Positions 9,001-12,000 of a DNA stretch of 64,000 nucleotides are shown here, piece by piece; position 1 is the stretch's first letter, and each line of letters begins with the position of its first letter. A program made the position numbers. The stretch lies in assembly GCF_988242995.1 (NCBI RefSeq), contig NZ_OZ547043.1; one strand, 5' to 3'.

Positions 9001-12000
9001 CACCATCAGCGTTTCAGCGAGATAAAAACAGAAATCAGGGCAGTTATTTTCCGCTGACAGTTGCGGTAAATCTTCAAACCCCGCCACAAGGTCATAAGAG
9101 AACAGGCCGCCGAAGAACATTGCTTCTCGTTCTTCATTCGGTACATTCAACAGACTCTGCAATAAGCGGAAAGCGTCAAAAACCGAAAGGGAGCATAAGC
9201 GAGCGTCTTCATCCAGCAGTGGACTGACAGGGGGGAAGCGCAGCACACGGCAGTTTGGTAATTGTTCATTTTCCACACCCGCAGGCAGGGCGTTATCCAG
9301 TAGTGTCAGCAGGGCTTCGCCGTTGCCGGAAAGTGCCTGAATTGTGACAGTGTCACCTAATGCTGTAATGCGCAGCGCACTGTCTACCAGCAGCAGGCTT
9401 TTTAAATCATCTTTGCTGTCGATATCTGCGGATTCCAGCAGCAGCGTTGCTGGACGATTCCCACACAACTGGTGAAAAAGCGCAGTCGGGTTGTCGCGAT
9501 AAGCGCCTTCGCAGGTTAGCAGTTCAAGAGTCGGTTTTTGTGTTTGCATTGTTATTCTCTAATTTTGTTCAAAAAAAAGCCCGCTCATCAGGCGGGCTGG
9601 GTATCTGATTGCTTTACGCATGGTGAATACACTGCCCGTTTCAGGAAGTGCGCCACCAACCTTTCAGTACGAAAATTGCTTTCATTGTCGATACCCTTTT
9701 TACGTGAACTTGCGTACTAGTTAACTGGTTCGATGATTAATTGTCAACAGCTCATTTCAGAATATTTGCCAGAACCGTTATGATGTCGGCGCAAAAAACA
9801 TTATCCAGAACGGGAGTGCGCCTTGAGCGACACGAATTACGCAGTGATTTACGACCTGCACAGCCATACCACAGCTTCCGATGGCTGCCTGACGCCAGAA
9901 GCATTGGTGCACCGTGCAGTCGAGATGCGCGTCTGCACCCTGGCGATCACCGACCATGACACCACAGCTGCAATCTCACCAGCAAGAGAGGAAATTTCAC
10001 GTTCGGGACTGGCGCTGAATCTTATTCCCGGCGTGGAAATCTCCACGGTCTGGGAAAATCATGAAATTCATATTGTCGGGCTGAATATTGATATTACTCA
10101 TCCGCTAATGTGTGAGTTCCTCGCGCAGCAGACAGAACGGCGCAATCAGCGGGCGCAGCTGATTGCCGAAAGACTTGAAAAAGCGCAGATACCAGGTGCG
10201 CTGGAAGGCGCGCAACGACTGGCGCAGGGCGGTGCGGTGACGCGCGGTCATTTTGCTCGTTTCCTTGTGGAGTGCGGCAAAGCCAGTTCAATGGCGGATG
10301 TCTTTAAAAAATATCTGGCGCGCGGGAAAACCGGATACGTTCCGCCACAGTGGTGTACAATAGAACAAGCTATTGATGTCATTCATCATTCTGGCGGTAA
10401 GGCGGTGCTAGCTCATCCTGGGCGGTACAATCTTAGTGCTAAATGGCTGAAAAGATTGGTTGCGCATTTTGCTGAACACCACGGCGACGCGATGGAAGTC
10501 GCGCAGTGCCAGCAATCGCCCAATGAACGCACCCAGCTGGCGACACTTGCGCGTCAGCATCATTTATGGGCATCACAAGGATCTGATTTTCATCAGCCGT
10601 GCCCGTGGATTGAACTGGGTCGTAAACTCTGGCTGCCTGCAGGCGTTGAAGGCGTCTGGCAGCTATGGGAACAGCCGCAGAACACCACAGAGAGGGAATT
10701 ATGAGCCAGTTTTTTTATATTCATCCTGATAACCCGCAGCAACGACTGATCAACCAGGCGGTGGAGATCGTGCGTAAAGGCGGGGTGATTGTTTATCCAA
10801 CCGATTCCGGCTATGCGCTCGGCTGTAAAATTGAAGATAAAAACGCCATGGAGCGTATTTGTCGAATTCGCCAGCTGCCGGACGGTCACAACTTTACCCT
10901 GATGTGTCGCGATCTTTCTGAGCTCTCGACCTATTCATTCGTGGATAACGTTGCGTTTCGTTTGATGAAAAACAACACGCCGGGCAACTACACCTTCATC
11001 CTGAAAGGGACGAAGGAAGTGCCACGCCGTCTGTTGCAGGAAAAACGCAAAACCATCGGTATGCGTGTGCCTTCTAACCCGATTGCGCAGGCGCTGCTTG
11101 AAGCATTGGGCGAACCGATGCTTTCCACATCACTGATGCTGCCAGGTAGCGAATTTACCGAATCCGATCCGGAAGAAATTAAAGACCGTCTGGAAAAACA
11201 GGTGGATTTGATTATTCACGGCGGCTATCTCGGGCAGAAACCAACAACGGTTATTGATCTTACTGATGATACGCCGGTCGTATTGCGTGAAGGCGTAGGT
11301 GATGTGAAGCCTTTCTTATAACAAATTGCGTTCCACGGATGGAAGACTATGGCAGGGAAGTTTCGCTGCATTTTGCTGTTGATAGCAGGGCTGTTTGTAT
11401 CATCTCTAAGTTATGCAGAAAACACGGAGATCCCTTCTTATGAAGAAGGGATCTCGCTCTTTGATGTTGAAGCCACTCTGCAACCGGATGGGGTGCTCGA
11501 CATCAAAGAAAATATTCATTTTCAGGCGCGAAATCAGCAGATTAAGCACGGATTTTATCGTGATTTACCACGACTCTGGATGCAGCCTGATGGGGACGCT
11601 GCACTGCTGAACTATCATATTGTTGGCGTCACCCGTGATGGTATTCCTGAACCCTGGCATCTTGACTGGCATATCGGGTTAATGAGTATTGTCGTGGGCG
11701 ATAAACAACGTTTCTTGCCTCAAGGCGACTATCATTATCAAATTCATTATCAGGTTAAAAATGCTTTCCTGCGTGAGGGAGATTCAGATCTGTTAATCTG
11801 GAACGTGACTGGTAACCACTGGCCGTTTGAAATCTATAAGACCCGATTTTCACTCAAGTTCCCTGATATCGCGGGTAATCCATTTAGCGAAATCGATCTC
11901 TTTACTGGAGAAGAGGGCGACACATATCGAAATGGCCGCATCCTTGAGGACGGAAGAATTGAATCCCGCGATCCGTTTTATCGTGAAGACTTCACGGTCC

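What the first reader, a model, noticed from the sequence alone, without database searches (positions are those of the whole stretch)
9710..9730. trp operator carries CCAG in place of one CTAG half-site
The minus-strand promoter reads ...atcgaaCCagttaactagtacg..., whereas the K-12 operator as I recall it is cgaaCTagttaactagtacg. The CTAG cores are the main TrpR contact bases, so this single change breaks the operator symmetry and could weaken repression (an operator-constitutive-type allele). The attenuator loop also differs from my recollection by one base (tgatga versus taatga), so this may simply be strain polymorphism. The comparison rests on memory of the reference sequence.
Basis: partly seen in the sequence, partly recalled or inferred. 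Interest (0 to 1): 0.4.

Follow-up and report, generated by a model that had tools for sequence, protein, structure and literature searches.

The report
Natural T-to-C variant in trp operator
The tryptophan-operon operator in this E. coli window does read CCAG where K-12 reads CTAG, but the same base is found in about 2% of complete E. coli genomes and about 40% of related species sampled, so it is an ordinary, tolerated polymorphism, not a broken operator.

Summary
On the minus strand the trp promoter-operator reads CGAACCAGTTAACTAGTACG. K-12 MG1655 reads CGAACTAGTTAACTAGTACG. The difference is one T>C transition at -16 (window 9727), the last base of the left GNACT half-site.

The operator-constitutive reading is not favoured.
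- **Within E. coli:** the allele occurs in 120 of 5374 complete-genome records, including UPEC 536, on at least four different trp-locus backgrounds.
- **Across species:** in 118 Enterobacterales trp promoters, -16 is T in 70 and C in 48, never a purine. The neighbouring left-half bases G-20 and C-17 are invariant, so the half-site is still under selection.
- **Other K-12 operators:** the mtr operator has the same ACCAG half-site, and aroL has C in the same slot.
- **Mirror allele:** -7 A>G occurs in O145:H28 strains. The adjacent change (-15 A>G) occurs in no genome.

The most likely reading is a tolerated pyrimidine-for-pyrimidine allele of a working TrpR operator, with at most a modest effect on repression. 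It may arise repeatedly, because very-short-patch repair erodes CTAG. No binding or expression data could be obtained.

The attenuator-loop G (9589) is also a minority polymorphism (367 of 5412 records) and leaves the predicted hairpin energy unchanged. Interest is low.

The parts
9727..9727 (-). The variant base. It is C on the trp sense strand (G on +), position -16. K-12 has T. It turns the left CTAG core into CCAG and the left half-site GAACT into GAACC.
   Evidence: alignment with K-12 and 118UI.
9713..9732 (-). trp operator core, the 20-bp imperfect palindrome CGAACCAGTTAACTAGTACG. The dyad lies between 9723 and 9722 (-12|-11).
   Evidence: Read directly. It is identical to the K-12 operator except at 9727. 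The orthologous sequence is conserved in 118 Enterobacterales species.
9742..9747 (-). trp promoter -35 hexamer TTGACA.
   Evidence: TTGAC is invariant in 117-118 of 118 species.
9719..9724 (-). trp promoter -10 hexamer TTAACT, with a 17-bp spacer to the -35. The variant lies 3 bp upstream, in the slot of the T of an extended -10 TGn motif. Neither allele has the G of that motif.
   Evidence: geometry counted from the sequence.
9711..9711 (-). Inferred transcription start (+1, AAGTTCACG). It lies 162 nt upstream of the trpE ATG.
   Evidence: Counted. The position of +1 comes from established knowledge of the K-12 trp operon (my own knowledge, not tested here).
9641..9685 (-). trpL leader peptide coding sequence (ATGAAAGCAATTTTCGTACTGAAAGGTTGGTGGCGCACTTCCTGA).
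   Evidence: The annotation of the colinear locus in GF60 is offset by one base.
9571..9664 (-). Trp operon leader/attenuator RNA. It includes the 3:4 terminator hairpin (about 9578-9598) and its loop variant G at 9589.
   Evidence: Rfam RF00513 Trp_leader, 91.6 bits. Hairpin energy is -14 kcal/mol for both loop alleles.
7987..9549 (-). trpE, the first structural gene of trpEDCBA. The operon continues to trpA at 3019.
   Evidence: ORF list; annotation of colinear loci.
9823..10704 (+). Divergent neighbour rnm (trpH/yciV, RNase AM), which bounds the intergenic region.

Best explanation
This is the ordinary TrpR-controlled promoter-operator of the E. coli trpLEDCBA operon. It carries a natural T>C transition at -16, the last base of the left GNACT half-site, five base pairs from the dyad. 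The allele is derived within E. coli. It recurs or is exchanged among lineages, and it is one of only two states (T or C) that evolution allows at this position across Enterobacterales. The operator most likely still binds tryptophan-activated TrpR and still represses. Three reasons support this. The other half-site bases are intact. The right-hand and downstream tandem half-sites are unchanged. The purine on the complementary strand, and hence its N7, is retained (A becomes G). Any effect is a modest quantitative shift in repression, not constitutive expression. Shown here: the base change, its frequency, its phylogenetic spread and the conservation pattern. Inferred: retained TrpR binding, small effect size, and the idea that the CTAG-to-CCAG direction is favoured by very-short-patch repair.
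For: - **Identity of the locus:** the promoter, operator, trpL, the Rfam Trp_leader match and trpEDCBA are all in place.
- **Frequency in E. coli:** the CCAG 61-mer is exact in 120 of 5374 complete-genome records, including UPEC 536, BH100, ECONIH2 and STEC299.
- **Several backgrounds:** carriers fall on at least four locus backgrounds that differ by 80-150 substitutions per 3.7 kb of trpE-trpD.
- **Ancestral state:** the Escherichia outgroups (E. albertii, E. whittamii, E. sp. E1V33) have T.
- **Across species:** in 118 Enterobacterales species representatives, -16 is T in 70 and C in 48, never A or G. The unconstrained-by-query neighbours G-20 and C-17 are 118 of 118 and A-18 is 113 of 118. 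Spacer positions -22 to -28 vary freely.
- **State flips within genera:** this is seen in Atlantibacter, Buttiauxella and Citrobacter.
- **Other K-12 operators:** the mtr operator TGTACTCGTGTACTGGTACA has the right half-site GTACCAGTA, the same ACCAG. The aroL operator has ATACCATCA, with C in the same slot.
- **Mirror and neighbour positions:** the mirror-image allele (-7 A>G) exists in 20 O145:H28 records. The neighbouring position-4 change (-15 A>G) exists in none.
- **Literature:** PMC9413887 gives the GNACT half-site at 8-bp spacing. PMC8745587 (Carey) reports that affinity and cooperativity compensate, so varied operators are occupied similarly. PMC4139847 describes water-mediated contacts to purine nitrogens worth about 1 kcal/mol. 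PMC5343134 identifies trpE as a core member of the conserved TrpR regulon. PMC5337935 and PMC2715241 show that VSP repair erodes CTAG and that Vsr stimulates CTAGG-to-CCAGG.
Against: - No binding or expression measurement was available for either allele.
- GNACT is the consensus and the T is lost. All six half-sites of the K-12 trp, aroH and trpR operators keep ACT.
- Classical genetics (Bennett & Yanofsky 1978; Bass et al. 1987), as I recall it and could not check, places operator-constitutive mutations in the CTAG cores. A measurable loss of affinity is therefore plausible.
- Species with C at -16 might compensate through TrpR level or sequence. This was not tested.
Confidence: 0.75

Rival explanations
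1. A genuine partial operator-constitutive allele. Loss of the T in the left GNACT half-site substantially weakens binding of the central TrpR dimer, so the trp operon is several-fold derepressed in tryptophan-replete conditions. This may be selected in particular niches such as the urinary tract.
For: - The change is in a consensus half-site base (PMC9413887) and lowers the symmetry of the operator.
- The allele sits on several E. coli backgrounds, and a mirror allele exists in O145:H28. Both fit recurrent selection as well as neutrality.
- From my memory of the classical Oc literature, which I could not check, the CTAG cores are the critical positions.
Against: - 41% of the sampled Enterobacterales trp operators have this base while the rest of the half-site is invariant.
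- The same ACCAG half-site occurs in the K-12 mtr operator.
- Tandem cooperative binding is reported to buffer sequence variation (PMC8745587).
- Attenuation remains intact as a second control layer.
Confidence: 0.12
2. The base acts mainly through RNA polymerase. It occupies the T slot of an extended -10 (TGn) element, 3 bp upstream of TTAACT, so T>C slightly lowers or alters intrinsic promoter strength rather than repression.
For: The geometry read places the variant immediately upstream of the -10 hexamer, with a 17-bp spacer to the -35.
Against: - Neither allele has the G of TGn (K-12 has TAG, the window has CAG), so no extended -10 element is made or destroyed.
- Both T and C are common across species whose -35 and -10 are otherwise identical.
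- The strict conservation of G-20 and C-17 in the spacer points to TrpR, not RNAP, as the constraint on this segment.
Confidence: 0.08
3. A sequencing or assembly error, or a private recent mutation of no significance, in the genome the window came from.
For: - No complete E. coli genome has the window's exact 241-bp haplotype, CCAG plus loop G.
- The nearest relatives at the flanks, GF60 and MEW, have T.
Against: - The identical base is present in 120 independent complete genomes and in 48 other species.
- Window 9590-9933 is identical to strain 536, so a short recombination tract or an independent recurrence explains it without invoking error.
Confidence: 0.05

Closest known systems
E. coli K-12 trp promoter-operator (trpO, TrpR-repressed, overlapping the -10 of Ptrp)
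   Same: The position, the flanking genes, the -35 and -10 hexamers, the start region, trpL and the attenuator are the same. 19 of the 20 operator bases are identical.
   Different: One transition at -16 (T>C) turns the left CTAG into CCAG. Symmetric pairs fall from 9 to 8 of 10.
trp operators of other Enterobacterales that naturally read GAACCAGTTAACTAGTACG (for example Erwinia, Kosakonia, Phytobacter, Yersinia, Pectobacterium, Atlantibacter, some Buttiauxella and Citrobacter)
   Same: From -20 to +5 the sequence is identical to the window, including C at -16.
   Different: The spacer upstream of -21 and the leader peptides differ. TrpR control in those species is inferred from comparative genomics (PMC5343134), not tested here.
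K-12 mtr and aroL TrpR operators
   Same: One half-site in each carries C in place of the consensus T: mtr has GTACCAGTA and aroL has ATACCATCA.
   Different: These are different promoters, also regulated by TyrR. Their repression by TrpR is weaker than at trp (my own knowledge, not checked here).
E. coli O145:H28 trp operator allele (-7 A>G)
   Same: It is the mirror image of the window's change in the right half-site (CTAG becomes CTGG), at the same distance from the dyad.
   Different: It lies on the other side of the dyad, just downstream of the -10 hexamer. It was seen in 20 records, and all five listed are O145 strains.
Laboratory operator-constitutive (Oc) mutations of trpO (Bennett & Yanofsky 1978) and the natural promoter-down allele of Shigella dysenteriae 16 (Miozzari & Yanofsky 1978)
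   Same: These are single-base changes in the same 20-30 bp, and they are historical precedents for natural and selected variation here.
   Different: Neither paper is held in the library, so I could not check whether -16 T>C is among the characterised changes. The window's -10 and -35 are intact.

Membership tests
TrpR-controlled trp promoter-operator of Enterobacterales | Located between the -35 hexamer and +1 of the promoter upstream of trpL-trpEDCBA, overlapping the -10 hexamer | tested here: met
   TTGACA, a 17-bp spacer and TTAACT, followed by trpL, an Rfam Trp_leader match (91.6 bits) and trpE-A.
TrpR-controlled trp promoter-operator of Enterobacterales | About 20-bp imperfect inverted repeat with its dyad between -12 and -11 | tested here: met
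   CGAACCAGTT|AACTAGTACG, with 8 of 10 symmetric pairs (K-12 has 9 of 10).
TrpR-controlled trp promoter-operator of Enterobacterales | GNACT-type half-sites at 8-bp spacing. This is a consensus, not an absolute rule: K-12 mtr and aroL have GTACC and ATACC half-sites. | tested here: met
   The right half-site GTACT (-3 to -7) and the downstream half-site GAACT (+6 to +2), both on the complementary strand, are intact. The left half-site is GAACC, which keeps the invariant G-20 and C-17. C at the last position is the natural state in 48 of 118 species.
TrpR-controlled trp promoter-operator of Enterobacterales | Tryptophan-dependent binding of TrpR and repression of transcription | not testable with these tools
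   This needs a gel-shift or footprint and a reporter assay. trpR lies outside the window.
Operator-constitutive (Oc) alleles of trpO | Raised trp operon expression in a trpR+ cell with excess tryptophan, and lowered TrpR affinity | not testable with these tools
   No expression or binding data could be found. The classical papers are not held.
Operator-constitutive (Oc) alleles of trpO | A change at a position that is otherwise held constant by selection for repressor binding | tested here: not met
   -16 alternates between T (70) and C (48) across species, while its neighbours are invariant. Within E. coli the C allele is present in 120 complete-genome records.
Extended -10 (TGn) promoters | TG dinucleotide one base upstream of the -10 hexamer | tested here: not met
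   The window reads CAG-TTAACT and K-12 reads TAG-TTAACT. Neither has the G.

The most novel reading that the evidence does not exclude
The base pair five positions from the dyad of the trp operator may be a recurrent evolutionary tuning point. On this reading, repair-biased CTAG-to-CCAG transitions arise repeatedly: at -16 in at least four E. coli backgrounds and many genera, and at the mirror position -7 in O145:H28. Each would lower TrpR occupancy a little, and the alleles would be retained by selection where higher basal tryptophan synthesis pays, for example in uropathogenic or plant-associated lineages.
Probability: 0.12. Interest if true: 0.45.

Novelty: already known. Interest (0 to 1): 0.15.

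Why it matters
The finding matters little on its own. It is a common allele of one of the best-studied operators, so it needs no special annotation and should not be read as a regulatory defect. The comparative pattern gives a small bonus. At -16 only pyrimidines occur. The neighbours G-20 and C-17 never vary. The mirror allele exists and the adjacent one does not. Together these form a natural mutagenesis map of which operator positions TrpR tolerates. That map could be compared with the long-debated direct-versus-water-mediated readout models, and it suggests that CTAG erosion by very-short-patch repair shapes operator evolution.

Tried and rejected
- **Classical papers:** I tried to read Miozzari & Yanofsky 1978 by DOI and PMC id. 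It is not held. Bennett & Yanofsky 1978 has no PMC id and was not looked up.
- **Full-text searches:** searches for position-specific TrpR operator mutagenesis gave only general statements. No paper gave data for -16 T>C.
- **First cross-species scan:** the scan with an internal NNNN pattern returned 0 hits, apparently a tool quirk. A plain 20-mer then gave 120 loci. Because that pattern fixes -15 to +5, variation in the right half and at -15/-14 across species could not be assessed.
- **Mis-aimed search:** one 61-mer search used the wrong coordinates (one search covers trpL, not the operator). I did not use it.
- **Source strain:** I tried to identify it. Best identities are only 98.8% (window 1-25000; GF60) and 99.3% (25001-50000; MEW, 7/2). 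The lineage is therefore not among the complete RefSeq genomes.
- **Origin of the window's C:** I could not decide between a new mutation and a short recombination tract. Window 9590-9933 is identical to strain 536, but it also differs from GF60 only at 9727.
- **Dcm site:** I considered this and rejected it, because CCAGT is not CCWGG.

Full report
**What is there.** The minus strand of window 9400-10000 carries the complete regulatory region of the E. coli tryptophan operon.
- The -35 hexamer TTGACA is at 9747-9742, followed by a 17-bp spacer and the -10 hexamer TTAACT at 9724-9719.
- The start region AAGTTCACG puts +1 at 9711, 162 nt before the trpE ATG at 9549.
- The trpL leader peptide gene is at 9685-9641, and the attenuator follows it.
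- Rfam finds the Trp_leader family at 9571-9664 with 91.6 bits.
- trpE-D-C-B-A follow on the same strand, and rnm (trpH) diverges on the other strand.

**The observation.** Alignment with K-12 MG1655 and with strain 118UI shows a single difference in the promoter-operator. Window 9727 is C on the sense strand where both references have T. The operator therefore reads CGAACCAGTT|AACTAGTACG instead of CGAACTAGTT|AACTAGTACG. The changed base is position -16, five base pairs from the dyad (-12|-11). It is the last base of the left GNACT half-site described for TrpR (PMC9413887).

**Frequency within E. coli.**
- A 61-mer centred on the variant is exact in 120 of 5374 complete-genome records, among them UPEC 536, BH100, ECONIH2, Combat2C1 and STEC299.
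- The K-12 form is exact in 3929 of 5390 records.
- The remaining records carry other transitions. The six non-K-12 records I fetched have -28 T>C, -24 C>T, -22 T>C or -21 C>T, all upstream of the core.
- Carriers of CCAG fall on at least four distinct backgrounds at the trp locus: 536/STEC299; H10/CFSAN029787/1EC213/07-4299; 14EC033; and the window itself. These differ by 80-150 substitutions per 3.7 kb of trpE-trpD.
- The window's nearest relatives at the flanks (GF60 at 98.8%, MEW at 98.7% over 25 kb) have T.
- All four combinations of the -16 site and the loop site, 138 bp apart, exist. The window's combination (C plus loop G) is in no complete genome.
- The allele has therefore either arisen more than once or moved by recombination. 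The data do not decide which: window 9590-9933 is identical to strain 536, but it differs from GF60 only at 9727.

**Frequency across species.** The matches I inspected are trp promoters followed by leader sequences with tandem TGG (Trp) codons. They come from genera ranging from Citrobacter, Enterobacter and Klebsiella to Erwinia, Pantoea, Yersinia, Serratia, Pectobacterium and Lonsdalea. In the 118 with enough upstream sequence:
- -16 is T in 70 and C in 48, never a purine.
- Free positions next to it are strongly constrained: G-20 in 118 of 118, C-17 in 118 of 118, A-18 in 113 of 118, and -21 is C or T only.
- Spacer positions -22 to -28 vary freely.
- The state at -16 flips within genera (Atlantibacter, Buttiauxella, Citrobacter).
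- The Escherichia outgroups (E. albertii, E. whittamii, E. sp. E1V33) have T, so C is derived in E. coli.

RNA polymerase does not need specific bases in the spacer. The conserved G-A-A-C is therefore best explained by selection for TrpR binding. Comparative genomics places trpE in the conserved core of the TrpR regulon (PMC5343134). Within a half-site that is clearly under selection, C at -16 is an accepted state.

**Other TrpR operators.** I read the K-12 operators directly.
- aroH is TGTACTAGAGAACTAGTGCA.
- trpR is CGTACTCTTTAGCGAGTACA.
- mtr is TGTACTCGTGTACTGGTACA.
- aroL is TGTACTAGTTTGATGGTATG.

The right half of mtr, read from the outside, is GTACCAGTA. That is the same ACCAG as the window's GAACCAGTT. 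The right half of aroL is ATACCATCA, again with C in that slot. The T is kept in all six half-sites of trp, aroH and trpR. It is the preferred base, but it is not obligatory.

**Symmetry controls within E. coli.** AACTAGTT is itself a palindrome, so both strands of the left core share the same sequence context for mutation.
- The synthetic 61-mer with -15 A>G (left CTAG to CTGG, position 4 from the dyad) has no exact match in 5374 records.
- The mirror image of the window's change, -7 A>G (right CTAG to CTGG, position 5), is exact in 20 records. All five listed are O145 strains.

Natural variation is thus found at position 5 on either side of the dyad but not at position 4. This fits a position-specific tolerance better than random drift.

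**Mechanism.**
- *Shown:* the points above.
- *From the literature:* three water molecules mediate contacts between TrpR and purine nitrogens in the operator, and removing those nitrogens costs about 1 kcal/mol each (PMC4139847). Operator affinity with tryptophan is about 0.5 nM, against 100 nM for non-operator DNA. On tandem sites, affinity and cooperativity compensate, so that differing operators are occupied similarly (PMC8745587).
- *Inferred:* a T>C transition changes the partner purine from A to G and keeps N7. This would explain why only pyrimidines are seen at -16. The unchanged right half-site GTACT and the downstream bottom-strand GAACT (+6 to +2, also conserved across species) should keep cooperative tandem binding.
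- *Also inferred:* the direction of change, CTAG to CCAG, matches the known bias of very-short-patch repair. That repair depletes CTAG in E. coli and relatives (PMC5337935) and stimulates CTAGG-to-CCAGG mutation (PMC2715241). The trp site is CTAGT, so it is only a partial Vsr context. This remains a hypothesis for the recurrence.

**The rivals.**
- *A true operator-constitutive allele* is not excluded, because nothing here measures binding or expression. From memory, the classical Oc mutations lie in the CTAG cores, and those papers could not be read. It is hard to reconcile with the base being the norm in 41% of related species' operators.
- *An effect through RNA polymerase* is unlikely. The base sits in the T slot of an extended -10, but neither allele has the G of TGn.
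- *A sequencing error* is unlikely, given 120 independent genomes with the same base.

**The attenuator loop.** The window's loop allele (61-mer exact) is in 367 of 5412 records. It lies in the loop of the 3:4 terminator. The predicted hairpin is identical in structure and energy (-14 kcal/mol) for both alleles. It is a neutral-looking polymorphism.

**Verdict.** The feature is the known trp operator with a common, tolerated allele. Interest is low. The only mildly interesting by-product is the natural tolerance map of the operator, together with the possible role of CTAG erosion.

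Noticed in passing
L143 (NZ_CP148323.1 1916000-1916148), positions 66-93; probably also hit H67 (NZ_CP182387.1): E. coli strain Z1323HEC0477 carries an 8-bp tandem duplication (AACTAGTT) inside the trp operator. It reads cgaactagttaactagttaactagtacg, so it has three CTAG cores 8 bp apart and a shifted -10/start geometry. A second strain, Br_190_kylling, shows the same two-piece 69-bp match.
   Followed up: partly
Hits H131-H135 (for example NZ_CP028379.1 1627219-1627279): E. coli O145:H28 strains carry the mirror image of the finding. 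Their change is -7 A>G, which turns the right-hand CTAG into CTGG (TTAACTGGTACG). It is exact in 20 complete-genome records.
   Followed up: partly
window 9589 (minus strand G; K-12 has A): The attenuator 3:4 terminator loop polymorphism is shared with 118UI, MEW, 7/2 and AR_0067. It is exact in 367 of 5412 records. Predicted hairpin energy is unchanged at -14 kcal/mol.
   Followed up: yes
window 9733-9739 region; loci L137-L142 and L005: The six non-K-12 E. coli promoter records I fetched carry transitions just upstream of the operator core: -28 T>C (ERL03-1416), -24 C>T, -22 T>C and -21 C>T (also seen in MEW). In total 1461 of 5390 records differ from the K-12 61-mer. All the variants I sampled lie on the upstream side of the dyad.
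   Followed up: partly
L006-L125, positions +6 to +8 relative to the trp start (window 9704-9706): The bases CAC just beyond the search pattern are almost invariant across 118 species: C at +6 in 118, A at +7 in 117 and C at +8 in 109. With the preceding bases they form a bottom-strand GAACT half-site 8 bp from GTACT. This fits a conserved tandem TrpR site that extends into the transcribed region.
   Followed up: partly
window 11349-13244 and 14500-15843: yciQ and the two hypothetical ORFs between rluB and cobO are present in the window, 536, GF60 and MEW. They are absent from H10-type strains (H10, CFSAN029787, 1EC213, 07-4299). yciQ is a pseudogene in 14EC033.
   Followed up: no
window 3800-9500 (trpE-trpA): The trp structural genes of the window differ by 2-4% from those of the other E. 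coli strains compared (76-152 substitutions per 3.7 kb). No complete genome exceeds 98.8% identity over window 1-25000. The source lineage is therefore not among the complete RefSeq genomes, and the locus looks mosaic.
   Followed up: partly
tool behaviour: A genome-contig scan with a pattern containing an internal NNNN returned no hits. A plain 20-mer contained in the same sequence then returned 120 loci, so the zero result was not biological.
   Followed up: yes
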